A DNA stretch of 64,000 nucleotides from Patescibacteria group bacterium (lineage in GTDB: Bacteria; Patescibacteriota; Minisyncoccia; Phycocordibacterales; SIBU01). This document shows positions 1,723-64,000 of the stretch, one piece after another. A program made the position numbers and the translations under genes. The notes under the pieces were generated by a model. It did not search any database. It saw only the letters and a list, made by a program, of their open reading frames with translations, and was not told the DNA's origin. Within the stretch, counting starts at the first letter, position 1. Every line of letters begins with the position of its first letter. The stretch lies in contig JAZJZC010000001.1 of NCBI GenBank assembly GCA_040390045.1, positions 36,345-100,344 of the forward strand, read 5' to 3'.

Positions 1723-1844
1723 GTGTTTAAATTCGAAATCCGAATATCGAAATCCGAAACAATCCCTAAATCCAAAATTTCAATATTTAAAATTTTGTGC
1801 TTTTAATTTGTTTCGAATTTCGCGCTTCGAATTTCGTGCTTTGT

Positions 1845-2312
1845 CTATTCGAGTTCAGTTATTTTATATTCAACAACGCCAACCGGAGTGGTAACTTTAA
1901 ATTGATCCGACTTCTTTTTTCCGATCATGGCTGAACCGAGCGGAGAATGAATCGAGAGTTTTGATTCGGCCAAGTTGGCTTCCTCGGAACCAACAATTTT
2001 AAATTTTGATTTTGATTTGTCTTTCAATTTTTCAATGTGAACCACAGATCCAATGCCCACCACTTCACTGTGATGAATCGACATGATTTCGGCAGACTTC
2101 AACATCGCTTCCAAACGAAGAATTTGATCTTCAATGTTTGCCTGATTTTCGCGAGCTTCGTGGTACTCGGCGTTTTCAGAAAGATCTCCGAGAGATTTGG
2201 CGTATTCGAGACTTTCAGCGACTTCTTTTCTTTTTACCGTTTTGAGTTCTTCAAGTTTTTTGGTCAATTCTTCAAACTTCTCCTTGGTCAGATATTCTTT
2301 TTTGTCATCCAT
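1845..2312 (-). CDS. greA: Transcription elongation factor GreA
   Basis: MDDKKEYLTKEKFEELTKKLEEL...SENAEYHEARENQ...PLGSAMIGKK motif set typical of GreA. Start is placed at internal M27 of the track ORF. Confidence 0.85.
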   Translation of the reverse strand: MDDKKEYLTKEKFEELTKKLEELKTVKRKEVAESLEYAKSLGDLSENAEYHEARENQANIEDQILRLEAMLKSAEIMSIHHSEVVGIGSVVHIEKLKDKSKSKFKIVGSEEANLAESKLSIHSPLGSAMIGKKKSDQFKVTTPVGVVEYKITELE

Positions 2313-2390
2313 ACGTGTAAATTTTAATTGCAATAATAAAAAATTGTATACATTGTGACCCCCAAAGTCAATGCTGTTCGCAGTCTTCAA

Positions 2391-2530
2391 TACGAAAATA
2401 GGAAAGTGAGTACGAACATACGAAAAAATACAAAAACTTTTGCCTGCTCTCTACAATTTTCGTATCATTTCGTATTTTCGTTAGTCCGCGTTTCGTATGG
2501 AAGGGCGGAAAGCGAGGTATTTTCGTATGA
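2391..2530. repeat. Array of ATACGAA / TTCGTAT heptamer repeats with overall dyad symmetry (copy A), in the greA promoter region
   Basis: Seen directly: tacgaaaata...tacgaacatacgaaaaaatac on the left, ttttcgtatcatttcgtattttcg...tttcgtatgg...ttttcgtatg on the right. Same motif family as 30778-30835 and 39756-39862. Confidence 0.7.
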
Positions 2531-2540
2531 CAACTCAACA

Positions 2541-3572
2541 CTACGCAATAGAATAGACTCCATCCTTGGTCTTCTTGAAAAATTTAGGATTTTGCAAATT
2601 GACAATGATGGTGTTCTCTTTGACATACCTCTCCTTCATCACCTTATCGATAATTTGTTCTCGGTTGAGCGGTCCATTGCTCTCTAAAACCTTCCTGATG
2701 ACATCTTTGACAACTCCTGACATGTATCCCCATTCGGCGAGCGCGTAGAGGCCTCGGCCAACGAGTACAAATCGAGGATCTTTGATGAGTTCGTTGTGGG
2801 TAGTGGCAATATGAGCTTTCTTACCGAAAAGTTTTTCAATCGACTTTGCGACTTCTCTAAAGTGAATTGGAGAACCGTGTCGGCGAATGACCAAAAAGGC
2901 GTAATCGCGCATGCCTTTGGCGTGAATATTTGGAGAAGATTTAAGTCCCCATTCACCAAGCGGATTTTTACCAATAGTTTTTGAAAGTTCAAGCCAGCGC
3001 TTGATCACGTCATTCTTAGATTTATAGTCATCAGAAATATCTTCAACATGCGTGAGAAAGTGCGCAATAATATCGAGTTCAGAAACCAAATCTTTGTCAG
3101 AAAGATTTTTATAAAGTTTTTTCAAAGCGTCGTGAACTTTTTTGGCTAGTGAATCACTGACATGCCAGCGGTGTTTGAAATTTTCATCTTCTTTTTCGCG
3201 TTTAAATGGATCACCCAAAACCAAAAGCAACTGAATGTGATTTTGAGTGCTCTTGTCTTTGGCGACGTACTCAAGAAAATTTTCCTCGCTAATAATGCCA
3301 CCAAGCTTATGAAAAAGTGCTTCCAACTCGGAAAAAACGCCTTTTTCTTTTGCGTAGGACTCAGCTCGCTTGATGCTGTGAACGGCATAATTTTCAATCT
3401 GTCTGACTCGTTCGCGGGTGATACCATATTTCTTGCCGATGGCTTCTAGGGTCATCTTTTTGGAATCTTTGTCGAGTCCATAGCGACTGACAATCACATC
3501 CCGCGCGCGATCAGGCAAGATGGCGAGAAGCCTCTTGACCACTTGTTTTGGATTGAAAGTAATGACGTTCAT
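2541..3572 (-). CDS. Sigma-70 region-4 (HTH) domain protein with a C-terminal winged-helix-like domain, putative transcription factor
   Basis: N-terminal VIVSRYGLDKDSKKMTLEAIGKKYGITRERVRQIENYAV matches sigma-70 region 4. No sigma region 2 is present. Confidence 0.6.
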   Translation of the reverse strand: MNVITFNPKQVVKRLLAILPDRARDVIVSRYGLDKDSKKMTLEAIGKKYGITRERVRQIENYAVHSIKRAESYAKEKGVFSELEALFHKLGGIISEENFLEYVAKDKSTQNHIQLLLVLGDPFKREKEDENFKHRWHVSDSLAKKVHDALKKLYKNLSDKDLVSELDIIAHFLTHVEDISDDYKSKNDVIKRWLELSKTIGKNPLGEWGLKSSPNIHAKGMRDYAFLVIRRHGSPIHFREVAKSIEKLFGKKAHIATTHNELIKDPRFVLVGRGLYALAEWGYMSGVVKDVIRKVLESNGPLNREQIIDKVMKERYVKENTIIVNLQNPKFFKKTKDGVYSIA

Positions 3573-3669
3573 TGGTCTTCTGATTAATCTCTAAAAACCT
3601 AGTAATAAGTTCACTTTTTAATGATTCGCTTCAGTGTAAGTCATGTTTACCGTTTTGTCAAACATTAGG

Positions 3670-6600
3670 TTATACAACAACATTAAGTAACCTGCCTTTG
3701 ACGTAAATTAATTTTTTTATCGGCAATTCAGCAATCCATTTTTTAATTTCTGGTAAATTGAGCGCCAGCTCTTTCGCTTCTGCTTCAGTCAACTCAGTTT
3801 CGGTATTCAAGGTGGAACGCATTTTACCGTTAACCTGAATCACCAAAACTCCCCCACTTTTTGAGGCTAATTTGGAATCATACACAGGCCAGGAACTCAG
3901 GTGAATAGATTTTTTATTGCCCAACAGAGACCATAATTCATCAGTAATGTGCGGCGCAAACGGAGCCAAAAGTTGCAACAAAATTTCGTACTCTTTCCGG
4001 GAAACAGTTTCCGCTTTTTCAAATTCATTGAGCAAGACCATCATGGCGCTCACTGCGGTATTAAATCGCATCGCCTCGATGTCTTCGGAAACTTTTTTGA
4101 TAGTCTTATGCAACAGAGTAGATTCATGATTCACGATTTTAGATTCAGGATTTTCTTGATTCCTATTCTTGAATCGTGATTCTTGAATCGTGATTCTTTC
4201 CTTGAGCTTCCAGACTCGCTCAAGGAATCTCCTTGGTCCCACCATGCTTTCTGTAGACCACGCAATATGCTGATCGAAAGGTCCCATAAACATTTCGTAG
4301 AGACGCAAGGTGTCAGCGCCGAATGTTTTAATAAGCGTGTCAGGGTTAACAACGTTTCCCAACGATTTAGACATTTTTACTCCACCTTCACCCAAAATTA
4401 ATCCGTGTGATGTACGTTTCAAATACGGCTCACTTGTGGGAACCAGACCTAAGTCAAAAAGAAATTTATGCCAAAAACGTGAGTACAAAAGGTGCAAGGT
4501 TGTGTGTTCCATGCCACCGTTGTACCAATCAACCGGTGTCCAGTAATCAAGTGCGCTCTTATTTTTTAAATCAAAACTTTTACCTTTTTTTACGACGTAC
4601 GCGAGATAATACCAAGAAGATCCAGCCCAATTTGGCATGGTGTCTGTTTCGCGACGAGCTGGGCCTTTGCAAACCGGACACTTCACGTTGACCCACTTTG
4701 AAATACTAGCAAGTGGCGATTCGCCGGTATCAGTTGGCTTGTAATTTTTCACGTTCGGAAGTTTCAGCGGCAGATCTTTTTCAGCGAGTGGCACAATGCC
4801 ACATTTTTCACAATGAATGACAGGAATCGGTTCCCCCCAATATCGCTGTCTCGAAAATACCCAGTCACGGATTTTGTACTTTACAATTTTTTCAGCAAAA
4901 CCTTTTTCCTTGAGCCATTCGACAATTTTAGGACGCGCTTCTTTTGAAGTTAAGCCGTCAAAAGTTCCTGAGTTAAAAAGAATTCCCTCTCCCTCGTAGC
5001 AGGTCTCAAGAGTTTTAACTTTTTCAAACAAAACAGGATCACTTGGTTTAATGGAAACCTTGAGCGGGATTCCATATTTTTTTGCCATATCAAAATCTCG
5101 CTTATCATGGGCATCTGCAAATACCGCTCCGGTGCCATATTCTCCAAGCACAAAATCTGAAACCCAGACTGCCATACTTTCTAGGGTTGCGGGATTTATG
5201 GCTTCAATACCCTTCAATTGCACTCCTGTTTTATTTTCTTTATCAGTTCTCTCAATGTCGGTCTTTTTCTTTGAATTGGAAATAAATCGTTCGATTTCTT
5301 CGAGATTTTCGAAGCTCTTCGCTAACTTTTTAATAATCGGATGTTCTGGGGCAACAACAAGAAAAGTACCGGAAAAAATGGTATCGATGCGCGTTGTGAA
5401 AACATCAACCTCTGAAATTTCATTCTTGAATCCTGATTCTTGAATCTTGAATCGAATTTGAGCTCCTTCAGATTTTCCAATCCAATTCTTCTGTTGTAAT
5501 TTTATTTTTTCCAAATACTCGATCGGAGTGTGGCCAGCAAGCATCCTTGATACAAACTTTTCATGGAAAAGTGAGATCACTTTTTTGTAACGCACCTCGT
5601 CCGACTGATCAGACTTGAAAACGCCAGTCTGCGCATCTTTCAGAAAAGCTTCAGTAGGATAGCCGGGCCAATAATTTTTGGTCTGTTCGTCCTGCAAAAT
5701 ATAGTCACTCGGCACAACCTCCTCCACCATACTTCCCGCCTCATCGGTAAATGAAGTGGCATAGTGAAAATTAGCGGGAGAGCTTCCGCCGACTGTTTTT
5801 AAGAAATTCTTGAGAAATTCTATGACCTCTTCATCAGTGGCACGTTCACTGTTTGGATTAGCATGCTTTCGCATGTGGACCATAACACCGTTATTCTCTG
5901 GCCATTTTTCAATCCAGAAAATATTATCGGTGGCAATAGTGGGAAAGCCAGTTTTTTTGAAATAAAACTCAGACTTCATTCTGGCATTTTCCTTGAAATC
6001 ATCGCCCTCTATTAAACTAGAGTCGTCAACCGGTGGCACGTCATCGAGCGAAAGCAGTTCAATGCCGGCAACACCTGCGAGGCAGGTTTTTATCATTTTC
6101 ACCTTGGCCGGATTTCTGGTGCCAATCAAAATCTTTTTATTATCCAAGTCGCGATCAAGTCGGTCAGCGTACTTCGTAATGGCCAACATCCACTGTTCTT
6201 TTTCGCGTTTCTCAACGGGTGTGCCACAACGCTCACAACAACCGTCCACCACTTCCTCATTAGCAAGACCAATCTTGTCTTTCGGACACCAATTGATCGC
6301 CATCTTTTTTTTGTAGGCCAAACCCTTCTCGAGAAATTTCAAAAAAATCCATTGCGTCCATTTGTAATATTCCGGATCGGTGGTGTTGATTTCCCGCGAC
6401 CAATCAAAACTAAACCCCAACTCTTTAAGCTGACGTTGGAAATTTTCGGTGTTTTTTTTGGTCACAATCGCCGGATGAATCCCGGTTTTGATGGCGTAAT
6501 TTTCCGTCGGCAATCCGAACGCATCCCAACCGATTGGGTACAACACTTCAAAACCTTCCGCTCGACGCTTGCGAGCGATTACATCCATAGCAGTATTCGA

Positions 6601-6816
6601 GCGAATATGCCCGACATGCAAACCATCTCCAGACGGATAGGGAAATTCGATTAGACCGTAAAATTTCTTGGGCGCAGAACTTCGCGGAACAGACGCGGAA
6701 CCACGCGGAAATTTCTGATCCTTAGCTTGGTTGAGTTTATTTTTCTCCCAAATCTTTTGCCATTTTTTTTCAATTTTTAGATGGTTGTAGTCGTTCATTA
6801 CAGAAAATAATGCCAC
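3670..6816 (-). CDS. leuS: Leucyl-tRNA synthetase with an ~200-aa Ham1/ITPase-like domain inserted ahead of the NWIG/CP1 editing region
   Basis: HVGH-type HIGH motif (GLHVGHIRS), KMSKS, CP1 editing domain, anticodon-binding and C-terminal domains all present. The insertion is residues ~228-426, between ...ADRLDRDLDNK and ...QQKNWIGKSEG. E. coli LeuS has only ~13 aa there. Confidence 0.9.
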   Translation of the reverse strand: MALFSVMNDYNHLKIEKKWQKIWEKNKLNQAKDQKFPRGSASVPRSSAPKKFYGLIEFPYPSGDGLHVGHIRSNTAMDVIARKRRAEGFEVLYPIGWDAFGLPTENYAIKTGIHPAIVTKKNTENFQRQLKELGFSFDWSREINTTDPEYYKWTQWIFLKFLEKGLAYKKKMAINWCPKDKIGLANEEVVDGCCERCGTPVEKREKEQWMLAITKYADRLDRDLDNKKILIGTRNPAKVKMIKTCLAGVAGIELLSLDDVPPVDDSSLIEGDDFKENARMKSEFYFKKTGFPTIATDNIFWIEKWPENNGVMVHMRKHANPNSERATDEEVIEFLKNFLKTVGGSSPANFHYATSFTDEAGSMVEEVVPSDYILQDEQTKNYWPGYPTEAFLKDAQTGVFKSDQSDEVRYKKVISLFHEKFVSRMLAGHTPIEYLEKIKLQQKNWIGKSEGAQIRFKIQESGFKNEISEVDVFTTRIDTIFSGTFLVVAPEHPIIKKLAKSFENLEEIERFISNSKKKTDIERTDKENKTGVQLKGIEAINPATLESMAVWVSDFVLGEYGTGAVFADAHDKRDFDMAKKYGIPLKVSIKPSDPVLFEKVKTLETCYEGEGILFNSGTFDGLTSKEARPKIVEWLKEKGFAEKIVKYKIRDWVFSRQRYWGEPIPVIHCEKCGIVPLAEKDLPLKLPNVKNYKPTDTGESPLASISKWVNVKCPVCKGPARRETDTMPNWAGSSWYYLAYVVKKGKSFDLKNKSALDYWTPVDWYNGGMEHTTLHLLYSRFWHKFLFDLGLVPTSEPYLKRTSHGLILGEGGVKMSKSLGNVVNPDTLIKTFGADTLRLYEMFMGPFDQHIAWSTESMVGPRRFLERVWKLKERITIQESRFKNRNQENPESKIVNHESTLLHKTIKKVSEDIEAMRFNTAVSAMMVLLNEFEKAETVSRKEYEILLQLLAPFAPHITDELWSLLGNKKSIHLSSWPVYDSKLASKSGGVLVIQVNGKMRSTLNTETELTEAEAKELALNLPEIKKWIAELPIKKLIYVKGRLLNVVV
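5539..6135 (-). other. Ham1/RdgB (ITPase-fold)-like domain inserted in LeuS
   Basis: KILIGTRNPAKVK...GIELLSLDDV...DFKENARMKS...FPTIATDNIF aligns with the Ham1 motifs (ATGNxGK, FxENAxxKA, ADDSGL). The C-terminal half is divergent (NYWPGYP in place of GFGYDP). Confidence 0.5.
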
Positions 6817-6850
6817 AGATCAAAGCTTTTTACCATATTAACGCAATCTA

Positions 6851-6880
6851 TTGACAAACTCAGTATATGTGTGATATTCT
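6851..6880 (+). promoter_or_regulatory. Sigma-70-like promoter candidate (TTGACA-N18-TATTCT) upstream of the GC-rich gene at 7011
   Basis: -35 TTGACA at 6851-6856, -10 TATTCT at 6875-6880. Confidence 0.35.
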
Positions 6881-7010
6881 GCATCGCAGATACCTTGTTG
6901 TTTGTCATCTTAACCCTGGCAAAAACACTAAATCGCTCACGCGTTTAGTCCGTAGCAACAAAGACGCAAATGCATCTGAAATTGCTGGTGGGTATTGAAC
7001 ACTCGTTACA

Positions 7011-7457
7011 ATGAAAACACTCAAATCACTGCTGGTCTGGTCCGCCCTCATCACCACTCTTATGACCTTGCTCGGCCTGTTCTTCGTCGCTAGCAATGGT
7101 GACTACGAGCTCCGGGACGCGAACAACGCGCTTCTGGATTGGAAGGAGGTCGTCACCGGCGAGAGCCACTTTCGTGGCTACGAGATGCCGATCGGCATCG
7201 GCTCCGTCGCGGTAGACCAACTCGCTGGCGAGGCCTATCAGGCCAGTGCCTATGGTGCCAGTCGCGCCGGCAATGCCCTCGCGATCTACATCACCCCGGA
7301 CTTTGTCCCATTCACTTGTGGACTCGCGTGGCTTTGGACGGCATTTCTGGTCGTGGCCTACGTCGTCTGCTTATTCTGGCGAACATTTGGGATTGATTGC
7401 CTTGCCAAAATCAAATACTGGCAAATTGAAAGGATTCGCAAGGCCTCCGAACAGTAA
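7011..7457 (+). CDS. Hypothetical membrane protein, GC-rich (~60%) relative to the flanks
   Basis: Signal/TM-like N-terminus, second hydrophobic segment near the C-terminus. Strong compositional contrast with neighbours. Its own terminator follows. Confidence 0.6.
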   Translation: MKTLKSLLVWSALITTLMTLLGLFFVASNGDYELRDANNALLDWKEVVTGESHFRGYEMPIGIGSVAVDQLAGEAYQASAYGASRAGNALAIYITPDFVPFTCGLAWLWTAFLVVAYVVCLFWRTFGIDCLAKIKYWQIERIRKASEQ

Positions 7458-7472
7458 ATTCGGCAAAACCAC

Positions 7473-7516
7473 AGCGCTTCATTCGATCAAAATTCGGATG
7501 AAGCGCTTTTCTTTTT
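7473..7516 (+). terminator. Intrinsic terminator for the 7011-7457 gene
   Basis: agcgcttcat-[loop]-atgaagcgct hairpin followed by tttcttttt. Confidence 0.7.
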
Positions 7517-7530
7517 ACCTGAAAAAAGGA

Positions 7531-7558
7531 AAAAGGCTGTCACAAATTGACAGCCTTT
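7531..7558 (-). terminator. Intrinsic terminator (minus strand) for the 7741-8679 gene. Convergent with the preceding terminator
   Basis: aaggctgtc / gacagcctt hairpin. On the minus strand it is followed by tcctttttt. Confidence 0.6.
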
Positions 7559-7740
7559 GGAAAATAAAATTATTGGATGTACATCATGGCATAGGCCACA
7601 ACACAAACTAGCAGAGCCACTCCGACAGCCTTTGAGCTAAATCGGACTGACCTACACCTGCCAACTCTCGATCTTCTACTCATACCAGCCGACACAATAC
7701 CATATTTCGACTTGATTAGCAAACCGCCTGATCCCGCTCA

Positions 7741-8679
7741 CTAATAGACAGGTTTTGGTGTCGAATACGCCCTTGGATCAATCGTTCTTTCGAAACAGTA
7801 CTTGCCCACAGGATGAGTCCAGGTAGCGCCTCCGTATGGATATGGAGCGGCAACACTGGCATTTTTAGCATCGTTTGAGGCGTAATTGAAATCGGCGCAA
7901 AGGTTGTACGTCGTAGCGTTTTTCTTTTGATACTCGTAGGATTTGCCCGATTGCTGATCAACAGGCGGAGTGAAATAATTACCGGAAGTAGTGAGATCAG
8001 AAAATGAAGCTGGTAAAACTCCTTTCACTTGGTAGAAATACGTTACTTGAGAATCGATATTTTGCAGATCGCTGATTTTTGCGCTGTCATATTTGTAAAG
8101 TTTCTGCGTGCGTGGTGAACCTAAAACAGCAAATCCCCAAACGATTGAACCGATTACTAACACAGCTGCAATACCCAACCAAACTTTTTGAGACATAGGA
8201 TTCAACTTTCCGCGCAAATCTGAAATGTAATAGAAAAAGACTGCAAACGTGACTACGAGCACCGCCAAAACTTTGAGTACAAATCCAGTATTCAACTCCT
8301 GTCCGTCAATAAAGTAGTACAAAATGGTTACCAAATCCCCCGCCATCGCAATCCCTGCAACGAAAAGCGTAATGTAGGTAAGCCACTTGCGAAGGCCGAA
8401 AATTTTCCTATCTGGCTCAGTGGCGTAATCTTTCTCCAAAAACCACATCAGGAAAACGTAGAGCGGAAAGAAAATAACTAAGATTGAAACAGGCCAACTG
8501 ATTGATTGGCTACCGAAATAATAATAGCCGTAGGTAATTTGCGGATAGGCGGCGTTAATCACCGAAAACAAAAGGTTGAGAAGACTGATGACTACGGTAT
8601 AAAGCGCAACGATAGCTCCCAAATTGAGAAATAGATCTTTGGGACTGGTTCTAGGTTTAGTTTGTTGAATAGTGTCCAT
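7741..8679 (-). CDS. Polytopic membrane protein with a C-terminal extracytoplasmic domain (hypothetical)
   Basis: 312 aa with 5-6 hydrophobic helices, then a Tyr/Asn/Ser-rich C-terminal tail. Confidence 0.7.
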   Translation of the reverse strand: MDTIQQTKPRTSPKDLFLNLGAIVALYTVVISLLNLLFSVINAAYPQITYGYYYFGSQSISWPVSILVIFFPLYVFLMWFLEKDYATEPDRKIFGLRKWLTYITLFVAGIAMAGDLVTILYYFIDGQELNTGFVLKVLAVLVVTFAVFFYYISDLRGKLNPMSQKVWLGIAAVLVIGSIVWGFAVLGSPRTQKLYKYDSAKISDLQNIDSQVTYFYQVKGVLPASFSDLTTSGNYFTPPVDQQSGKSYEYQKKNATTYNLCADFNYASNDAKNASVAAPYPYGGATWTHPVGKYCFERTIDPRAYSTPKPVY

Positions 8680-10408: not shown

Positions 10409-13400
10409 CTACTGAGTCGTGCTTGTTGCCGTGGTAGTCGAAACGTCAGCGTGCGAAAACAAACTCACAATCCAACGCCAAGGTTTGAGAATAATTGAAC
10501 CGGCAAAGTTTCTGAGGCCTTCGAAGATATTCTTAGGTGATGTTGTACTTGCTGTATCATCTGCAACCGTAGAAGAAGAATTTGAACTATCGTCACTAAC
10601 GGTGGTCGCTGGTACCGTTCCTGTAGTGTTGGCGGAAAAAATATTGGTTTTTCCTGCATCAACTGTTTTTGTTGGATTGTAGGCGTTTCCCCAAAGGGTA
10701 CTCAACATCATCGCTCTGAAATCATTGATTTCAATTTGTTCCGCAACCGTAACAGGAAATGGTCGCTGACAGTAAATTTCGTTTACTTTTTTCTTGGTTG
10801 TGATGTAAGTAAATTCAGTTGGTCCAGGAAGCGCCCATGGTGCCAAGATATCATCCCAATATTTTACTTGGAAGGCATCCACACCAACAATAGTTGGATC
10901 ATCGTAGATTCCAGTGATTTGTAGATCCTTCATGCCTTCAAAATCTCGAAGGAAGACCTGCAATTTTCGGACTTCAACTGGATTATTGTTCCAGCCTTTT
11001 TTCAAGTGATCGTACAAGTAGTAACATACGCCTGGTGTAACGGGAGTCGATGAAGCAAAGGCTCCTAATACAACGCCGTTTACAGGTCCTACGTTAATTG
11101 GAACCGGTGGGCCGTTGCTACCTCCTCCGCCCCCACCACCTCCCCCTCCTCCACCGCCACCTCCACTTGTGCCTCCACAATTAGTACATGGAGCTGGATT
11201 TACTGTGAATGAAACACTTGAACCGTTGTTTGTTGAATCGGTATCAGTTTGAGATGAACTTGCGTTTGCAGAGTTAGTAATAGTTGTACTTTCGGTGCCG
11301 AGTTTAACTTTGGCTTTCAAAGTAAGGCTCGTACTTGAACCGTTAGCCAAGTTTCCAACCGTCCACAGGCCAGTGGTTGTACTGTAGCTACCAATAGAAG
11401 TACTTGCGGAAATAAATTCCAATCCTGCAGGTAACACGTCAGTGACTGAAACTCCTGTCGAAGAAAGTGTTCCGAGGTTCGTTAATACGAGAGTGTAAAT
11501 AATTTCATCGCCAACGCTCGCTGTGGTTTTGTTAGAAGTTTTGGTAATACTCAAGTTGACACCTCCACCTCCACCACCGCAGTTCGAAGTACAACCAGGT
11601 GTGTTTACAGTAAATGATACGGCTCCAGTATTGTTTGTCGAATCAGTATCAGTTTGTGTTGAACTGGCGATAGCGGTGTTGGTAATAGTTGAACCTTCGG
11701 TTCCCGCTTTTACCTTAGCTTTCAAAACTAAAGTTGTAGTTGAGCCATTCGTCAAATTTCCGATAGTCCAAAGACTGGTTGTGGTGCTGTAACTACCGAG
11801 CGATGTGCTGGCGGAAATAAATTCCACACCGGTTGGCAGAATATCGCTCAAAGAAACTCCTGTTGAAGAAAGTGTTCCGAGGTTTGTCAGTACAATGGTG
11901 TAGATAACTTCATCACCGACATTTGCCGTAGTTTTATTGGCAGTTTTTGTGACACTCAAGTTAACGCCACTGGTTCCTCCGCCACCACAGTTTGAAGTAC
12001 AGACGACTGGATTTACGATGACGTTCACTGTCGCGGTGTTGTTTGAAGAATCGGTATCAATTTGAGTTGAAGTCGCCGCTGCAATGTTGCCAATAGTGAG
12101 GCCTTCGTTCCCTGCCTTTATTGTAGCTTTCAAAATAAGGGTCGTGGTTGCATTTTTCGCCAAATTTCCAATGGTCCAGAGTGAAGTTGAGGTGCTGTAA
12201 CTACCAATACTCGTGCTCGCTGAAACAAATTGCAACTGCGATGACAAAACATCAGTGACAGAAACTCCGGTTGCGGCATCTGGCCCAGCGTTTGAAACAG
12301 AGATCGTGTAGGTGACTTGATCGCCGACATTAGCGTTTGTTTTATCAGCAATTTTGGTAAGACCGAGGTTAACACCAGAAATTGGAACTGGAACAACGAT
12401 AACATTTCGCGTAACTGAAGCACTCAAACCTCCCGAGTCAGTGACCGTGTAGGTGAGTGTGTACGTGCCAAGCGTGCTCGTGCTGACAGTTCCGGTAACC
12501 ACAATTTGTGATGTGAGATTGCCATCTTCGAGGTCAGTGGCAGTAGCTCCGGGATCGGTAAAGACATGACCCAAGATAACAGTGATTGGATTGGCACCGA
12601 CAAGCGTAATAACCGGCGCGGTGTTTGTTGGTGGATTAACTGGACCATTAGGACAGGTAGAAGCGGTTGTGGTGTACGAATAGGTTACCGCAACGGAACT
12701 TGAAGCGGTAAGCAAAGGGAAATAACTGTAGGGGCCGGTAGTAAAATCTCCTATCAAATTGAGAGTTGAGAAAGATTGTCCTGAAACATCTTCGGTAACA
12801 TTTACACCACCGGTTGTCGTGCTAACGAAACTTAAAAGTTCTGTTGGGTCAGTAATCGTCAACAAGGCATCACTTTGAGAATATGTGCTTGTGCCAGTAC
12901 CGTATGAACTTGCGCCAGCATAATCGAGCGCGCCATCGGCGGCATTAACTGTAACTGGACCGAAGTAACTGGTGAAATATAATTTTGATAGATGTCCCGG
13001 CACACTAAACGTGCTGGTCGCCAAAAGACCGCCAGAAATTGAAATCGGGTGGGTAGCAATGTTCTCTACCTTTTGATTGATATTTGCCTCAGCGTAGTGC
13101 TTGAGAGAAAGAGAAGTCAGAGTTCCAAGAGCAGGATCGAAATATTTAATTTTTCCTTGCTTGGTAAAATCAGCCTTAGTTGTTGGGAAAATTAAAGTGT
13201 CAGAGTATTGGCAGGAAATTGGAGCAGGAGGTGGAGGCGGCAAAGGATTACAAACAGCGTTAATCTCCGCATCTCCATCGTTTAACATACTACCTCCACC
13301 TAAAGCAGAAATATATCGGAAGGCCTGTGGAAACAACCAAATGGTTGTGTCGTTGTCAGAAATCCAGTTTGTTGGGCCATCAGGGTAGGTTCCAATTTCT

Positions 13401-14449
13401 ATACCAGAAGTCCAAGGACCAGCTGGACTATCGGAACCAAAAAGGGCACCCTCGTGAGCTTCGTTTGGAGTTTCTCCGTGGTCAATAGATGGAACAAGAT
13501 AGACCATGTTGCTACTGGTTGCAGTAGTAGTTCCCATATCCCAAACTCCCCTTCCTGGATAACCACTAAATCCTGCAGGATTGCTAAACACCTGAACCCA
13601 TTTATGATCGATAAAATCTCCGGAATGTGGATCGCTGTTGTATACCCAATCATAAGCAGTAGGACTGGTTTCCTCACCAGTTACCATTCCCGTAGTGAGA
13701 AGAACTCCACAAGAACCGATATTCAAGGTTGTTGGTGCGGTTGGGCAAGGAGCAGTGCTGGTGAAAGAATAAGTTACTACAACAGAATTCGAAGCATAGA
13801 TCAAAGGAAAATAACTCCATGGTCCTGAAGGAGTGCTTGAAGCGATGTTGAGGAATGAGAACGACTGACCGGAAACATTTTCGGTAATATCAACGCCACC
13901 AGCACCAGAATTAACATAATTTAAAAGTTCAGCAGGATCGTTGATTGCAATCGAGGTATCGTTTTGAGAAAAAGTTGTGGTACCAGTGTCGTACGAACTT
14001 GAACCAGCATAATCGAGAGCTCCATCGTACGCGGTTATGTCGACTGGACCGAAATTACTAGAAAAAAGCAAATTTGAAGTATGTCCTGGAAGACTCAATG
14101 TGCTGGTTGCACTGAGGCCACCACCACTTGAAATTGTATGATCAGAGACGTTTTCTGCCTTCTGGCTTACATCAACGATAGAAATGTGCTTGATAGAAAG
14201 ACTTGTGAGAGTACCGAAGGCGGGATTAAAGTACTTGATTTTTGCCTGCTGTGTAAAATCAGCCTTCGCAACGCCGAAAACAATGGTGTCAGAAAGCTGA
14301 CAGGAATTGCTTGTTGTCGTTGCCGCACGTACAAGGAGGTTTGAAGATGGCACAGCCAAAATCATTAGGGACAAAAACATGACGAAAAGCGATGTGGTGA
14401 TTTTTTTCTTGAGATTGCTGATCTTGCTCGTTGATAAATATTTTTTCAT
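10409..14449 (-). CDS. Giant secreted cell-surface protein: signal peptide, two duplicated ~190-aa N-terminal domains, an Ig-like domain, three tandem DUF11 repeats, a poly-Gly linker, and a C-terminal PG_binding_1-like domain
   Basis: N-terminal hydrophobic signal. GVNLGLTKIADKTNANVGDQVTYTISVSNAGPDAATGVSVTDVL... repeated three times (DUF11). GGGGGGGGGGGGGGGG linker. C-terminal VRKLQVFLRDFEGMKDLQITGIYDDPTIVGVDAFQVKY resembles a peptidoglycan-binding domain. Confidence 0.85.
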   Translation of the reverse strand: MKKYLSTSKISNLKKKITTSLFVMFLSLMILAVPSSNLLVRAATTTSNSCQLSDTIVFGVAKADFTQQAKIKYFNPAFGTLTSLSIKHISIVDVSQKAENVSDHTISSGGGLSATSTLSLPGHTSNLLFSSNFGPVDITAYDGALDYAGSSSYDTGTTTFSQNDTSIAINDPAELLNYVNSGAGGVDITENVSGQSFSFLNIASSTPSGPWSYFPLIYASNSVVVTYSFTSTAPCPTAPTTLNIGSCGVLLTTGMVTGEETSPTAYDWVYNSDPHSGDFIDHKWVQVFSNPAGFSGYPGRGVWDMGTTTATSSNMVYLVPSIDHGETPNEAHEGALFGSDSPAGPWTSGIEIGTYPDGPTNWISDNDTTIWLFPQAFRYISALGGGSMLNDGDAEINAVCNPLPPPPPAPISCQYSDTLIFPTTKADFTKQGKIKYFDPALGTLTSLSLKHYAEANINQKVENIATHPISISGGLLATSTFSVPGHLSKLYFTSYFGPVTVNAADGALDYAGASSYGTGTSTYSQSDALLTITDPTELLSFVSTTTGGVNVTEDVSGQSFSTLNLIGDFTTGPYSYFPLLTASSSVAVTYSYTTTASTCPNGPVNPPTNTAPVITLVGANPITVILGHVFTDPGATATDLEDGNLTSQIVVTGTVSTSTLGTYTLTYTVTDSGGLSASVTRNVIVVPVPISGVNLGLTKIADKTNANVGDQVTYTISVSNAGPDAATGVSVTDVLSSQLQFVSASTSIGSYSTSTSLWTIGNLAKNATTTLILKATIKAGNEGLTIGNIAAATSTQIDTDSSNNTATVNVIVNPVVCTSNCGGGGTSGVNLSVTKTANKTTANVGDEVIYTIVLTNLGTLSSTGVSLSDILPTGVEFISASTSLGSYSTTTSLWTIGNLTNGSTTTLVLKAKVKAGTEGSTITNTAIASSTQTDTDSTNNTGAVSFTVNTPGCTSNCGGGGGGVNLSITKTSNKTTASVGDEIIYTLVLTNLGTLSSTGVSVTDVLPAGLEFISASTSIGSYSTTTGLWTVGNLANGSSTSLTLKAKVKLGTESTTITNSANASSSQTDTDSTNNGSSVSFTVNPAPCTNCGGTSGGGGGGGGGGGGGGGSNGPPVPINVGPVNGVVLGAFASSTPVTPGVCYYLYDHLKKGWNNNPVEVRKLQVFLRDFEGMKDLQITGIYDDPTIVGVDAFQVKYWDDILAPWALPGPTEFTYITTKKKVNEIYCQRPFPVTVAEQIEINDFRAMMLSTLWGNAYNPTKTVDAGKTNIFSANTTGTVPATTVSDDSSNSSSTVADDTASTTSPKNIFEGLRNFAGSIILKPWRWIVSLFSHADVSTTTATSTTQ
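11270..12385 (-). repeat. Three ~360-bp nucleotide-level tandem repeats encoding the DUF11 modules of the surface protein
   Basis: Near-identical stretches (e.g. ccaatagaagtacttgcggaaataaattccaa / ccgagcgatgtgctggcggaaataaattccac) recur at ~360-bp spacing. Coding, not CRISPR. Confidence 0.7.
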
Positions 14450-62394: not shown

Positions 62395-64000
62395 TTATAC
62401 TCGCTCACCTTTTGATTCTGGTTTTGGCCAAGGAGAAATCGCGAGTGGTGAGGTCGGATTATATAAACTCATATACAATTCTTCAGTCATGAACGGCATG
62501 AACGGATGCAAGATGACGAGATACTCGGCATAAACATGCTGTAATACTGATAGAGAAACTTCAACTTCAGCTTTCTCTTGAATGCCCTGTGCGTATCTTT
62601 CCAAATCTGAAAAAAAGCTACGAATCTTTTCTTGAGCTAAGGCAAAAGAAAATGCGTCAATATGTAAGGCGACGACAGAAGCAAGCCTTTCGACGGCCAA
62701 CAAAATATTTTTATCTTCAGCTGATAACTCCAGCTGTTCAGAAAATTTTAATGAATATTGTCTCGCTAAAGAAACAATCGAACCAACGTTCCACAATCTT
62801 TGAGAAAATTCCTGAAAAGAAACCAGCTGCTCTTCGGAAAAAATAAAATCTTCCTGCATTGTGGTGTAGGACACGAGCGCCATCCTCGTCACATCCGCTC
62901 CAAATTTTTCTAAATAATATTCAAGAGAAACGGCATTGCCAAGACTTTTGCTCATTTTTTGTCCGTCCAAACCTTTCAAAAGCCGGTGAAGATAGACTGT
63001 TTTAAAAGGCAATTTTCCACTTATGTATCGACTCAACAATAATTTTCTCGAAACTGACAATCGAAGCAAGTCGTGACCGATCACAATTGAATAGCTTGGG
63101 TAAAAATAAGAAAAATCGTCTGAGTCCAAATCTCCGAAAACAATTTCACTCCATTGTCCCGAGGAAAACCACGTATCAAACGTGTCAGTTTCAGGTAAAT
63201 ACAATTTCCCGTTCTCCTTTTCTAAAACCCAACTTGATCCTTCCGAAGCATAAATTCTTTCTAATCCTTGTGAAATTTCTTCGAGAGACACCCCCTGATC
63301 TAAAAATTGTTTTAAGTTTCCGTACTGTTTTTCGCCTGTGTCCGTATTAAACCAAACCGTAAATTTTGACGGATCAGAAACATCGTACCAAATAGGAATT
63401 TTAATCCCCCAAACATTCTGGCGCGCGATAGGCCAATCGTGCATTTTCCCCATCCACTCGATTAAGCCTTTCTCTCTCCATCTTGGAAGCACAACGAGAC
63501 CTTCCTTTTTAATAGCTTCAGTGGCAGGTTTTCTGAGCGGAGTTTTTTGATCATCCAACTTTAAAAACCATGTGAGCATAATCATGGTCTCAACAACGTG
63601 GCCACGTTTACATAGAAAAGTAGAATCCGTATAAGAATCATCAACTTTTTCAATCAAACCTCGTTCATTCAAAAAAAGTACTTCTCTATCTCGAGCCTCA
63701 AGTGGTTTCAAGCCAGGATACCGCTCGATCATATTTCCGTCCCAATCTAATAAATTTTGTGACGGAATAGAGTTACGCAAAGTATATTCGTAATCATATT
63801 TTTTATATGACGGAGAAAAAGGTGAAAGAAACTGATCGAGTTGTTCGGGATCAAACTTCCTCTTACTTGCTACAACACTGACCAACGCACCTGTGATCGG
63901 ATTTTTTAAAATTTTTCCAATATGACTTGCGTACCGTTTGTCTTCGGGATGAATCAAAACATGGGTGACTGCAAAAAGAAACTCTGGACGTGTCGTTGCT
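62395..64000 (-). CDS. valS: Valyl-tRNA synthetase, C-terminal ~535 aa. The N-terminus runs off the window end
   Basis: HPEDKRY (ValS signature), KMSKS, anticodon-binding and C-terminal coiled-coil. The frame is open upstream to position 64000 (...RPEFLFAVTHVLIHPEDKRY). Confidence 0.85.
   Translation of the reverse strand, partial: ATTRPEFLFAVTHVLIHPEDKRYASHIGKILKNPITGALVSVVASKRKFDPEQLDQFLSPFSPSYKKYDYEYTLRNSIPSQNLLDWDGNMIERYPGLKPLEARDREVLFLNERGLIEKVDDSYTDSTFLCKRGHVVETMIMLTWFLKLDDQKTPLRKPATEAIKKEGLVVLPRWREKGLIEWMGKMHDWPIARQNVWGIKIPIWYDVSDPSKFTVWFNTDTGEKQYGNLKQFLDQGVSLEEISQGLERIYASEGSSWVLEKENGKLYLPETDTFDTWFSSGQWSEIVFGDLDSDDFSYFYPSYSIVIGHDLLRLSVSRKLLLSRYISGKLPFKTVYLHRLLKGLDGQKMSKSLGNAVSLEYYLEKFGADVTRMALVSYTTMQEDFIFSEEQLVSFQEFSQRLWNVGSIVSLARQYSLKFSEQLELSAEDKNILLAVERLASVVALHIDAFSFALAQEKIRSFFSDLERYAQGIQEKAEVEVSLSVLQHVYAEYLVILHPFMPFMTEELYMSLYNPTSPLAISPWPKPESKGERV

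What the first reader, a model, noticed from the sequence alone, without database searches (positions are those of the whole stretch)
5539..6135. Ham1/ITPase-fold domain inserted inside leucyl-tRNA synthetase
LeuS carries an ~200-aa insertion between the conserved ...ADRLDRDLD and ...NWIGKSEG segments. E. coli LeuS has ~13 residues at that point. The inserted sequence begins KILIGTRNPAKVK...GIELLSLDDV...DFKENARMKS...PTIATDNIF. This matches the N-terminal motifs of the Ham1/RdgB non-canonical NTP pyrophosphatase family (T-x-N-x-x-K, FxENAxxKA, ADDSGL). The C-terminal motifs are degenerate: NYWPGYP stands in for GFGYDP. A nucleotide-binding or house-cleaning-type domain embedded next to the editing (CP1) domain of an aaRS is unusual. 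It could be a catalytically inactive structural module or a new proofreading or nucleotide-sensing function.
Basis: partly seen in the sequence, partly recalled or inferred. Interest (0 to 1): 0.7.

Follow-up and report, generated by a model that had tools for sequence, protein, structure and literature searches.

The report
Ham1-like hydrolase module inside leucyl-tRNA synthetase
The leucyl-tRNA synthetase of this ultra-small (Patescibacteria) bacterium really does carry a complete, conserved ITPase-fold nucleotide-hydrolase domain spliced into its middle, one of several "house-cleaning" hydrolase modules that relatives encode either just upstream of leuS or inserted into it, an arrangement I could not find described in the literature.

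Summary
leuS (window 3670..6816, minus strand, 1048 aa) has about 200 extra residues (aa 226-426, window 5539..6141) between ...ADRLDRDLD and ...NWIGKSEG. The site is about 15 residues before the CP1 editing domain.

- **Identity of the insert.** Scanned alone, it passes Pfam Ham1p_like (31.8 bits against a cut-off of 22.5). It models confidently (pLDDT 92). Its top 29 PDB fold matches are all RdgB/Ham1/ITPA.
- **Not an RdgB/ITPase orthologue.** TIGR00042 scores 25.7 bits against a cut-off of 145. D68 and the SHR motif are missing. The phosphate-, Mg- and catalysis-related residues (T8, N10, K13, an invariant Glu next to E41, N49, K53, D69, R86) are invariant in 48 of 48 subfamily members.
- **Selection.** The module is as conserved as the LeuRS C-terminal 400 residues.
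- **Distribution.** The same subfamily sits in many Patescibacteria LeuRS at two sites. It also occurs as a standalone gene, directly upstream of leuS in 5 verified and 1 probable of 8 contexts. NUDIX, serine-hydrolase and HAD modules occupy other LeuRS sites. LeuRS that are 85-95% identical in the core differ by whole modules.

Best reading: an active accessory nucleotide pyrophosphatase of unknown substrate, fused to a functional LeuRS. Coupling to LeuRS chemistry is not excluded. Six literature searches found no description.

The parts
3670..6816 (-). leuS, bacterial-type leucyl-tRNA synthetase. ORF of 1048 aa from GTG 6816. The more likely start is ATG 6798, which matches the 1042-aa NCBI model P0007.
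   Evidence: ORF; TIGR00396 944.8 bits against cut-off 548.4; P0007 100% identical, 'MAG: leucine--tRNA ligase [Patescibacteria group bacterium]', contig 323,682 bp; sequence at the start
6142..6816 (-). LeuRS aa 1-225: N-terminal half of the catalytic Rossmann fold, with HVGH (aa 67-70, window 6607..6618), the ZN1 cysteines, and the helix ...ITKYADRLDRDLD that ends at the insertion point.
   Evidence: Pfam tRNA-synt_1/1g; invariant H67 G69 H70 C177 C194 C197; helix 213-222; aligns to T. thermophilus LeuRS 123-208
5539..6141 (-). Inserted Ham1/ITPase-fold module, LeuRS aa 226-426. Putative active-site residues are T233, N235, K238, E270, N277, K281, D297, H314 and R316, which are module positions 8, 10, 13, 45, 52, 56, 72, 89 and 91.
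   Evidence: PF01725, 31.8 bits; 6wwd E 8.5e-7; pLDDT 92.1; RdgB/Ham1/ITPA top fold hits; invariant columns; 63-77% identity among site-A orthologues
5512..5538 (-). Low-confidence linker (aa 427-435, AGHTPIEY...) that returns the chain to LeuRS.
   Evidence: pLDDT below 50 at module positions 205-208; variable columns 211-216
5437..5511 (-). LeuRS helix YLEKIKLQQKN plus the NWIGKSEGAQIRF beta-strand that leads into CP1 (aa 436-460). In 'site B' relatives the same Ham1-like module sits after this element instead of before it.
   Evidence: H436-446, E448-460; site A and site B junctions; T. thermophilus 209-236
4912..5490 (-). CP1 editing domain (aa 443-635). The threonine-rich motif TTRIDT is at aa 474-479 (window 5380..5397). 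GTGAVFADAHDKRD is also present.
   Evidence: PF13603, 184.3 bits, aa 443-635; motifs
3670..4911 (-). LeuRS aa 636-1048: second half of the catalytic domain with KMSKS (aa 814-818, window 4363..4377), the anticodon-binding domain and the C-terminal domain.
   Evidence: PF00133 aa 647-846, PF08264 aa 901-1010; invariant K814 M815 S816 K817
7741..8679 (-). DUF5671 gene directly upstream of leuS. It is a conserved neighbour. In relatives the standalone Ham1-like gene lies between it and leuS.
   Evidence: PF18920; L001; P0275 contig; L089
9227..10360 (-). ychF GTPase gene, part of the same conserved neighbourhood (YchF - DUF5671 - [Ham1-like] - leuS).
   Evidence: translation; same order in L001, L083 and the P0275 contig

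Best explanation
The segment encodes a complete, independently folding domain of the Ham1/ITPase superfamily. It is inserted in frame into a surface helical hairpin of an otherwise normal bacterial-type LeuRS, about 15 residues before the CP1 editing domain (between the equivalents of T. thermophilus LeuRS E208 and G209). It belongs to a distinct, LeuRS-associated Ham1-like subfamily. I read it as an accessory, catalytically competent, Mg2+-dependent nucleotide pyrophosphatase. The T-x-N-x-x-K loop, the E-N-A-x-x-K helix and the H-x-R segment would hold the phosphate chain of a nucleoside-triphosphate-like substrate. The invariant Glu and Asp (LeuRS E270, D297) would hold the metal and activate water to cut the alpha-beta bond. 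Because D68 and the Ser-His-Arg base-recognition motif are missing, the substrate is probably not ITP/XTP. LeuRS itself keeps HIGH, KMSKS and the CP1 motifs and should still charge tRNA-Leu. The module is one of a kit of house-cleaning-type hydrolases (Ham1-like, NUDIX, Ser-hydrolase, HAD). In Paceibacteria-type Patescibacteria these are encoded either as small genes directly upstream of leuS or as insertions around CP1. Fusion would tie their expression and stoichiometry to an essential, constitutively made enzyme in a streamlined genome. Shown: the fold, the insertion site, residue conservation, distribution, gene neighbourhood and the patchiness of the modules. Inferred: catalysis, substrate class, the benefit of fusion, and that no direct chemical coupling to LeuRS is needed.
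For: Fold and family. Host is a bona fide LeuRS with intact motifs. Active-site conservation: T8, N10, K13, N49, K53, D69, H84 and R86 (RdgB numbering) are invariant in 48/48 subfamily members, embedded and standalone alike, with an invariant Glu one position from E41. D69 is the residue replaced by Ala in the RdgB-IMP and RdgB-ITP complex entries 2pyu/2q16. Purifying selection: the module is 63-77% identical among site-A orthologues, against 58-76% for the LeuRS C-terminal 400 aa and 30-57% for the start of CP1. Independent assemblies: 29 of 30 species representatives with this subfamily carry it inside a LeuRS ORF. Standalone genes of the same subfamily abut leuS in L001, L082, L086, L087 and L088, and probably in the P0275 contig. 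House-cleaning theme: the other inserted modules are NUDIX, Ser_hydrolase and HAD with intact signature motifs. One relative has a Ham1-like+NUDIX fusion between fpg/mutM and leuS. The modules are dispensable for LeuRS: pairs 85-95% identical in the core differ by whole modules.
Against: No activity data exist. The module scores far below every NCBIfam RdgB/ITPase equivalog cut-off. D68 and SHR are absent, so the usual substrate cannot be assumed. A pure co-expression rationale does not explain two things. First, the modules are always internal, around CP1 and the zinc knuckle, and never a simple N-terminal fusion, although the standalone gene touches the leuS start. Second, the association is with leuS specifically. 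I could not read coordinates of the full-length model, so the orientation of the Ham1 cleft relative to the LeuRS sites is unknown. Whether these genomes lack a separate rdgB or mutT was not testable from 64 kb.
Confidence: 0.5

Rival explanations
1. LeuRS-coupled hydrolase. The Ham1-like module, and likewise the NUDIX, Ser-hydrolase and HAD modules, acts on adenylate-type compounds made at or aimed at the LeuRS active site. Candidates are misactivated aminoacyl-AMP, Ap4A-type by-products, or leucyl-adenylate-mimicking toxins. This would add a proofreading or immunity layer in cis.
For: The link to leuS persists as either neighbour or insertion. Insertions recur at two sites flanking the neck of CP1, and all modules cluster around CP1 and the zinc knuckle rather than at the termini. 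One subclade of site-A Ham1-bearing LeuRS has lost the CP1 threonine-rich editing motif (TTRPDT changed to YNSVPQT or FSAHFEA), which leaves room for a substitute function. NCBIfam already holds an aaRS with an embedded small-molecule-modifying enzyme, ileS_w_GNAT NF040702. From my own knowledge, LeuRS is the target of the adenylate mimic agrocin 84, and Hint, MccF and MccE enzymes detoxify aminoacyl-nucleotides.
Against: The conserved residues are those that grip a triphosphate chain, which aminoacyl-AMP lacks. The window's own LeuRS keeps its CP1 motifs. Closely related LeuRS do without any module. The fpg-[Ham1+NUDIX] context points to nucleotide-pool sanitation. No Ham1-family enzyme is known to me to cleave aminoacyl-adenylates.
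Confidence: 0.25
2. Non-catalytic module. The Ham1 fold is kept as a nucleotide sensor or regulator, or as an extra tRNA or protein-binding surface on LeuRS.
For: A Ham1-fold protein that acts as a nucleotide-binding component rather than a house-cleaner exists among the fold hits: the KomBC complexes 9v0g, 9xvc and 8zsg, where the 9xvc title names dITP as ligand. The module departs from the canonical ITPase motifs (D68, SHR). Its position at the hinge of a mobile domain would suit allosteric control.
Against: The invariant Glu and Asp (metal and general-base positions) together with all phosphate-binding residues, in 48/48 members including standalone proteins, are what one expects of an enzyme. 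The companion modules keep their catalytic signatures too. The module is dispensable between near-identical LeuRS.
Confidence: 0.15
3. Passenger or selfish cassette. The modules spread through the conserved leuS gene by recombination and persist without benefiting the host.
For: Presence and absence are extremely patchy, with clean in-frame boundaries between LeuRS of 85-95% core identity. In the rough NJ domain tree, site-A proteins fall in three separate places and standalone forms are scattered.
Against: There are no intein or homing signatures, and no flanking repeats. Purifying selection on enzyme-like residues is as strong as on the LeuRS C-terminal 400 residues. Standalone orthologues are maintained as ordinary genes.
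Confidence: 0.07
4. Artefact: a chimeric assembly, a frameshifted pair of genes, or an intein.
For: None found. Whole-protein Pfam scans miss the Ham1 hit, so the architecture is easily overlooked.
Against: The frame is continuous and composition is uniform. The same junction occurs in an independent ENA fragment, P0006, and in about 20 further proteins from different projects. The module begins NKKILIG and ends ...RMLAGHTP|IEY, so it lacks the intein boundary residues, and there is no Hint domain.
Confidence: 0.01

Closest known systems
RdgB / Ham1 / ITPA house-cleaning (d)ITP/XTP pyrophosphatases (Pfam PF01725; PDB 1k7k, 2q16, 6wwd, 4bnq, 2j4e)
   Same: Same fold (Foldseek probability 1.00, TM 0.55-0.76). 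The Pfam score is above the gathering cut-off. The N-terminal T-x-N-x-x-K loop, E-N-A-x-x-K helix, catalytic Asp (D69) and the H/Y-x-R segment are conserved. The size is the same, about 200 aa.
   Different: Identity is only 17-22%. TIGR00042 scores 25.7 bits against a cut-off of 145. D68 is replaced by Thr/Ser, the Glu is shifted by one position, G-F-G-Y-D-P is replaced by P-G-Y-P, and the S-H-R base-recognition motif is absent. The module is embedded in another enzyme rather than being a free homodimer. The substrate is unknown.
Divergent standalone Ham1-like proteins with the P-G-Y-P-L motif (P0134-P0273; Clostridia, Chloroflexota, Acidobacteriota and others)
   Same: They are the nearest non-LeuRS relatives (E about 1e-15 to 1e-6, 26-37% identity). 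They share G-Y-P and H-x-R-R and also lack a conserved D68. They too fall below the RdgB equivalog cut-offs.
   Different: They are separated from the LeuRS-associated subfamily by a wide gap in score, from 1e-36 to 1e-15. They keep E41 in the canonical position. No link to leuS was looked for in their loci (L030-L081).
CP1 editing domain of class Ia synthetases, and aaRS with appended or embedded enzymes (e.g. NCBIfam NF040702, ileS_w_GNAT)
   Same: A globular hydrolytic or modifying domain is inserted into, or fused to, a class I synthetase and is carried as one polypeptide.
   Different: CP1 is universal and acts on aminoacyl-tRNA. The Ham1-like module is optional and patchy, comes from a nucleotide-hydrolase superfamily, and in site-B relatives is nested inside CP1 itself. 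A 2026 survey of domain insertions found PF13603 only as an insert, never as a host (PMC13114784).
Ham1/ITPase domains embedded in potyvirid and secovirid polyproteins (CBSV/UCBSV HAM1h)
   Same: A Ham1-family module is recruited into a larger protein of a compact genome and is reported to partner with a nucleotide-using enzyme (abstracts of PMC6640186 and PMC8893687).
   Different: Per its abstract (PMC6640186) the viral Ham1 has highly conserved ITP pyrophosphohydrolase motifs and hydrolyses mutagenic nucleotides. From my own knowledge it is released from a polyprotein. Here the module is a permanent internal insertion with altered specificity motifs.
KomBC (PDB 9v0g, 9xvc, 8zsg)
   Same: A Ham1-fold component of a larger complex that binds a nucleotide: the 9xvc title reads 'dITP-KomBC(H146N) Complex with NAD Fragments'. 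These entries rank among the fold hits (TM 0.56-0.76).
   Different: It is a separate multi-protein complex, unrelated to translation. The resemblance is fold-level only (15-16% identity).

Membership tests
Ham1/ITPase superfamily (Pfam PF01725, ITPase-like fold) | Profile match above the curated gathering score | tested here: met
   31.8 bits against 22.5, E 1.6e-7, profile positions 1-122 of 186, when the insert is scanned alone. Not reported when the whole LeuRS is scanned.
Ham1/ITPase superfamily (Pfam PF01725, ITPase-like fold) | The alpha/beta ITPase fold over the full domain | tested here: met
   AF2 model pLDDT 92.1, pTM 0.84. Foldseek ranks 1-29 are all RdgB/Ham1/ITPA/NTPase or KomBC, with about 200 aligned columns. 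Maf proteins follow at weaker scores.
Ham1/ITPase superfamily (Pfam PF01725, ITPase-like fold) | Phosphate-binding and catalytic residues (RdgB T8, N10, K13, E41, N49, K53, D69) | tested here: met
   T8, N10, K13, N49, K53 and D69 are 48/48 in the subfamily. E41 itself is V/I/K, but the adjacent position is Glu in 48/48. Whether that Glu reaches the metal site was not checked on coordinates.
RdgB/HAM1 non-canonical purine NTP pyrophosphatase (NCBIfam TIGR00042 and PRK148xx equivalogs) | Score above the equivalog cut-off | tested here: not met
   TIGR00042 25.7 bits against 145.35. NF011397 36.4 bits against 234.
RdgB/HAM1 non-canonical purine NTP pyrophosphatase (NCBIfam TIGR00042 and PRK148xx equivalogs) | Base-recognition motifs G-F-G-Y/W-D-P and S-H-R, and the D68-D69 pair | tested here: not met
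   The subfamily has P-G-Y-P-T-E. The SHR columns are gaps in 48/48. D68 is Thr/Ser in 46/48.
RdgB/HAM1 non-canonical purine NTP pyrophosphatase (NCBIfam TIGR00042 and PRK148xx equivalogs) | ITP/XTP to IMP/XMP + PPi activity; homodimer | not testable with these tools
   Needs enzymology and solution studies.
Bacterial-type leucyl-tRNA synthetase (TIGR00396 leuS_bact) | Equivalog score, HIGH and KMSKS motifs, CP1 editing domain after ZN1, anticodon-binding and C-terminal domains | tested here: met
   944.8 bits against 548.4. HVGH at aa 67-70 and KMSKS at aa 814-818 are invariant. PF13603 at aa 443-635 and PF08264. TTRIDT and GTG...HDKRD are present. The best PDB matches are T. thermophilus and E. 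coli LeuRS.
Intein / Hint-domain insertion | Cys/Ser/Thr at the first residue, His-Asn at the end followed by Cys/Ser/Thr, Hint-domain profile | tested here: not met
   The insert starts NKKILIG and ends ...AGHTP followed by IEY. There is no Hint or intein Pfam hit at E<=10. Site-B and site-D modules in relatives also lack these residues.
Maf nucleotide pyrophosphatases (PF02545) | Profile match and best fold match | tested here: not met
   No Pfam Maf hit for the insert. Maf structures appear only from rank 30, with TM 0.35-0.47.

The most novel reading that the evidence does not exclude
The Ham1-like module, with the NUDIX, Ser-hydrolase and HAD modules, forms a LeuRS-dedicated accessory toolkit that exists either as genes abutting leuS or as cassettes inserted around CP1. 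It works together with the synthetase, for example by destroying misactivated adenylates, Ap4A-type by-products or leucyl-adenylate-mimicking toxins at their source. That would be a new cis-acting quality-control or immunity layer in an aminoacyl-tRNA synthetase, exchanged between lineages by recombination through the conserved leuS flanks.
Probability: 0.2. Interest if true: 0.85.

Novelty: new variant of a known kind. Interest (0 to 1): 0.68.

Why it matters
Bacterial aminoacyl-tRNA synthetases are usually seen as architecturally frozen. Here a whole clade of ultra-small bacteria has turned LeuRS, and even its CP1 editing domain, into a host for up to three unrelated hydrolase domains that come and go between near-identical enzymes.

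If the modules are active house-cleaning enzymes, this shows how streamlined genomes package nucleotide-pool sanitation into an essential gene. It also defines a new Ham1 subfamily with an unknown substrate.

If the modules work with LeuRS, this would be a new kind of synthetase-linked proofreading or toxin defence. Either way the proteins are short, conserved and expressible, so the question is directly testable.

There is a practical point as well. Annotation pipelines label these proteins inconsistently. One relative is named 'non-canonical purine NTP pyrophosphatase' although it is a 1186-aa LeuRS.

Tried and rejected
- **Intein or mobile-element insertion.** Rejected: no boundary residues, no Hint profile, and no flanking direct or inverted repeats beyond chance-length matches.
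- **Assembly chimera or frameshift.** Rejected: the same junction and architecture occur in many independent assemblies.
- **True RdgB/ITPase orthologue.** Rejected by the equivalog cut-offs and the missing D68 and SHR.
- **C-terminal motifs merely degenerate.** Revised: G-Y-P is shared with the nearest Ham1-like relatives.
- **Remnant of a standalone Ham1-like gene in the DUF5671-leuS spacer (6817..7740), and a second Ham1 or LeuRS in the window.** None found by tblastn. The only other weak LeuRS-like hit (62422..63447) is another class I synthetase.
- **Assigning the NUDIX, HAD or Ser-hydrolase modules to a characterised equivalog.** None reaches a cut-off.
- **DNA-level comparison of an orthologous pair with and without the Ham1 module (P0023 and P0042).** No DNA is held for P0023.
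- **AFDB fold search.** The library was unavailable.
- **Geometry of the module relative to the LeuRS active sites.** The structure tool returns no coordinates or PAE, so this could not be assessed.
- **Literature.** Seven searches and one paper check found nothing on LeuRS with Ham1, NUDIX or hydrolase insertions in CPR/Patescibacteria. The library omits most subscription journals, so absence is not proof.
- **Profile search of the 5.8-billion-protein collection with alignment A1.** It returned mostly short standalone proteins and few LeuRS, so it cannot be used to count embedded against standalone forms.
Full report
**What is there.** The window carries one long minus-strand ORF, 3670..6816, of 1048 aa. 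It is a bacterial-type leucyl-tRNA synthetase. NCBIfam leuS_bact scores 944.8 bits against a cut-off of 548.4. Pfam finds the class I catalytic domain, the LeuRS editing domain (aa 443-635) and the anticodon-binding domain. HVGH (aa 67-70) and KMSKS (aa 814-818) are invariant in an alignment with 56 relatives. An identical protein, starting six codons later at ATG 6798, is on record as 'MAG: leucine--tRNA ligase [Patescibacteria group bacterium]' on a 323-kb contig. The plus-strand ORFs overlapping the gene (5051..5443, 5993..6316, 6352..6654) lie wholly inside this well-supported CDS, and I treat them as shadow frames.

**The insertion.** ADRLDRDLD ends at aa 225 and NWIGKSEG begins at aa 444, so 218 residues lie between them. 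Insert-free relatives have a spacing of about 23 residues from the YADRL motif to NWIG. The T. thermophilus and E. coli enzymes have about 14-17 residues between DLD/DLE and WIG. With the insert removed, the flanks align without a break to T. thermophilus LeuRS 123-330. This places the insertion between E208 and G209, and at E. coli PDB-chain residues 227/228, which would be D207/K208 if the 880-residue chain carries a 20-residue tag. From my own knowledge the T. thermophilus editing domain is usually given as residues 224-417. The site is therefore in the loop of the helical hairpin that leads into the N-terminal beta-linker of CP1. The full-length AlphaFold2 model (pLDDT 84.5, pTM 0.79) shows helix 213-222, then the inserted alpha/beta domain (strand 227-231 through helix 411-426), then helix 436-446 and strand 448-460 entering CP1. 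GC content across the insert (0.42-0.44) is like the rest of the gene. No meaningful repeats flank it.

**Is it Ham1?** Yes.
- Scanned alone, the insert hits Pfam Ham1p_like at E=1.6e-7 and 31.8 bits, above the gathering score of 22.5. The hit is lost when the whole protein is scanned, which explains why the deposited annotation says only LeuRS.
- phmmer against PDB sequences finds M. abscessus dITP/XTP pyrophosphatase 6wwd at E=8.5e-7, followed by E. coli RdgB.
- A model built from 23 subfamily sequences has pLDDT 92.1 and pTM 0.84.
- Foldseek against the PDB returns RdgB, Ham1, ITPA, archaeal NTPases and KomBC chains at ranks 1-29 (E down to 1e-11, probability 1.00, TM 0.55-0.76). Maf proteins follow only at lower scores.

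**What kind of Ham1?** I aligned 48 subfamily members, 105 of their nearest ordinary relatives, and E. coli RdgB. My recalled RdgB sequence was verified as identical to PDB 1k7k. The alignment shows the following.
- T8, N10, K13, N49, K53, D69, H84 and R86 (RdgB numbering) are invariant in 48/48.
- E41 is replaced, but the neighbouring position is Glu in 48/48.
- D68 is Thr/Ser.
- The G-F-G-Y-D-P motif reads P-G-Y-P.
- The S-H-R motif has no counterpart.
- The nearest ordinary relatives also read G-Y-P-L and lack a conserved D68.

D69 is the residue changed to Ala in the RdgB-IMP and RdgB-ITP complex entries 2pyu/2q16. All NCBIfam RdgB/ITPase equivalog models score far below their cut-offs, for example TIGR00042 at 25.7 bits against 145. 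The module is thus a member of the superfamily and not an ITPase orthologue. Its substrate should not be assumed to be ITP/XTP.

**Is it functional?** Among site-A orthologues the module is 63-77% identical to the window's copy. The LeuRS C-terminal 400 residues are 58-76% identical, the first 130 residues of CP1 are 30-57%, and the N-terminal catalytic part is 78-90%. The invariant columns include the putative active-site residues listed above. This pattern indicates purifying selection on an enzyme or at least on a nucleotide-binding site. It does not fit a decaying passenger.

**Distribution.** An exhaustive HMMER search of 1.84 billion representatives gives 448 hits at E<=1e-3, but only 10 at E<=1e-30. 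After those there is a gap down to about 1e-15. The close group mixes LeuRS-embedded and about 200-aa standalone proteins.

Among the 120 LeuRS most similar to the window's, 37 besides the window's own entry P0007 carry this subfamily. About 20 carry it at the window's position ('site A', before the helix-NWIG element). The rest carry it at 'site B', about 22 residues after NWIG and immediately before the editing motif VFTTRPDT, which is inside CP1.

A scan of one genome per GTDB species found 30 species with the close subfamily. In 29 of them it lies within a LeuRS reading frame. The record titles point to Patescibacteria (Taylorbacteria, Nomurabacteria, Paceibacterota, Kerfeldbacteria). Several auto-assigned titles look wrong.

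In a rough NJ tree the subfamily is monophyletic against ordinary Ham1. Site-A proteins fall in three separate places and standalone forms are scattered. I treat this only as a hint that the module has moved more than once.

**Link to leuS.** I examined eight genomic contexts of standalone members.
- In L001 the gene sits between DUF5671 and leuS, in the same YchF - DUF5671 - leuS - sigma70_r4/HARE-HTH neighbourhood as the window.
- In L082 it overlaps the start of leuS.
- In L088 it ends 11 nt before leuS.
- In L087 the order is Ser_hydrolase gene, Ham1-like gene, a 196-aa unknown, then leuS.
- In L086 a single 372-aa protein combines the Ham1-like domain with a NUDIX domain and lies between fpg/mutM and leuS.
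- The P0275 contig has YchF - DUF5671 - Ham1-like - a truncated 601-aa gene, but no DNA is held to verify that gene.
- One contig ends too early to tell (L083).
- One looks archaeal and has no leuS (L085).

So in 5 verified and 1 probable of 8 contexts the standalone gene is the immediate upstream neighbour of leuS.

**A wider phenomenon.** The related LeuRS range from 766 to 1536 aa. Mapping against an insert-free 766-aa reference shows recurrent insertion sites:
- Ham1-like at sites A and B.
- NUDIX at reference position 362, late in CP1.
- Ser_hydrolase (PF06821) at position 406, right after a C-x-x-C, and once at position 273.
- HAD at position 452, in the second zinc knuckle.

The NUDIX box, the HAD DxDG motif and the G-H-S-L-G nucleophile elbow are intact. 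None of these modules matches a characterised equivalog. The modules are strikingly patchy. LeuRS pairs with 85-95% core identity differ by entire modules with clean boundaries. Examples are P0064/P0068 (94.9%, with and without NUDIX) and P0042/P0023 (86.6%, with and without Ham1-like at site B and Ser_hydrolase at site D, at what looks like the same locus with murJ downstream). LeuRS therefore does not need the modules. I have no demonstrated mechanism for such clean gain and loss; ideas are in the notebook. A 2026 survey of domain insertions classed the LeuRS editing domain as an insert that never acts as a host (PMC13114784). In these proteins it is a host.

**Interpretation.** The best-supported reading (confidence about 0.5) is an accessory, catalytically competent nucleotide pyrophosphatase of a new Ham1 subfamily, fused into a functional LeuRS. 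It would be part of a kit of house-cleaning-type hydrolases that these streamlined bacteria keep at or in leuS. The fpg-[Ham1+NUDIX]-leuS arrangement fits nucleotide-pool sanitation.

What this reading does not explain is why the partner is always leuS, and why the modules are always internal around CP1 rather than N-terminal fusions, although the standalone gene abuts the leuS start. That keeps alive a coupled role (about 0.25): hydrolysis of misactivated adenylates, Ap4A-type by-products or adenylate-mimicking inhibitors. One observation leans that way without proving it. A subclade of site-A LeuRS has lost the CP1 threonine-rich motif (TTRPDT changed to YNSVPQT or FSAHFEA). The window's enzyme, however, keeps TTRIDT and GTGAVFADAHDKRD, as do insert-free relatives. 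A non-catalytic sensor or binding role (about 0.15) has a fold-level precedent in KomBC but fits the invariant catalytic residues poorly. A selfish cassette (about 0.07) fits the patchiness but not the selection. An artefact or intein is excluded.

**Novelty and limits.** The proteins are in public databases and some carry precomputed Ham1 or NUDIX Pfam hits. One 1186-aa LeuRS is even named 'non-canonical purine NTP pyrophosphatase'. Seven full-text searches and one targeted paper check found no description of Ham1, NUDIX or hydrolase insertions in LeuRS. The searchable library omits most subscription journals.

I rate this a new variant of known kinds: an aaRS with an embedded accessory domain, and a new Ham1 subfamily. 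Three things could not be determined: the orientation of the module relative to the LeuRS sites (no coordinates available), whether these genomes lack separate rdgB or mutT genes, and any activity.

Noticed in passing
window 7011..7457 (+), within the DUF5671-leuS spacer 6817..7740: A 148-aa ORF on the opposite strand with GC about 0.60, against about 0.42 around it. It looks hydrophobic and membrane-like and has no Pfam hit. It occupies the spot where relatives carry the standalone Ham1-like gene. tblastn finds no Ham1 remnant there. It may be a recent acquisition.
   Followed up: partly
relatives P0009, P0011, P0012, P0014, P0016, P0019-P0022, P0096 (LeuRS with site-A Ham1 module): The CP1 threonine-rich editing motif VFTTRPDT is replaced by TYNSVPQT or TFSAHFEA, and GTGAVMAVPAHD by GTGIV(N/K)(A/C)S(A/V)HD. 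These LeuRS may be editing-deficient. The window's LeuRS keeps TTRIDT (window 5380..5397).
   Followed up: partly
relatives P0008-P0126; L001:8639-12154: Related LeuRS carry NUDIX (reference site 362), Ser_hydrolase PF06821 (sites 406 and 273) and HAD (site 452) insertions in many combinations, up to 1536 aa. Signature motifs are intact. LeuRS that are 85-95% identical in the core differ by whole modules with clean boundaries.
   Followed up: partly
L086:1023-2141 (P0278); L087:113-1314: In L086 a 372-aa protein fuses the Ham1-like domain to a NUDIX domain and lies between fpg/mutM and leuS. In L087 a standalone Ser_hydrolase gene overlaps the start of a standalone Ham1-like gene, followed by a 196-aa unknown and leuS.
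   Followed up: partly
L029 (open frame 923-6307, 1795 aa) and L015 (411-5153, 1581 aa): These are still larger LeuRS reading frames. In L029 the Ham1-like module lies about 800 residues after NWIG, which implies further inserted material that I did not characterise.
   Followed up: no
L085 (P0003 context) and L026: One standalone Ham1-like gene sits next to an eIF-1A gene and what looks like a tRNA-splicing-endonuclease gene, so the context is archaeal and has no leuS. The L026 record is titled 'archaeon' yet has the module inside a LeuRS frame. This could be transfer to DPANN-type archaea or mislabelled bins.
   Followed up: no
window 6664..6717 (LeuRS aa 34-51): A short Pro/Ser/Arg-rich stretch (QKFPRGSASVPRSSAPKK) near the LeuRS N-terminus is modelled with pLDDT below 50 at aa 38-44. 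It falls where the consensus of 57 relatives is poorly defined.
   Followed up: no
window 10409..14449 (-): A 1346-aa protein with three DUF11 repeats, a bacterial surface Ig-like domain and DUF7619, next to ychF. It is probably a large cell-surface protein.
   Followed up: no
window 62422..63447 (-), ORF 62395..63957: A second class I aminoacyl-tRNA synthetase-like gene (520 aa ORF) gives a weak tblastn match to LeuRS (E 1e-12, 22.6% identity). I did not identify it further or check it for inserted domains.
   Followed up: no
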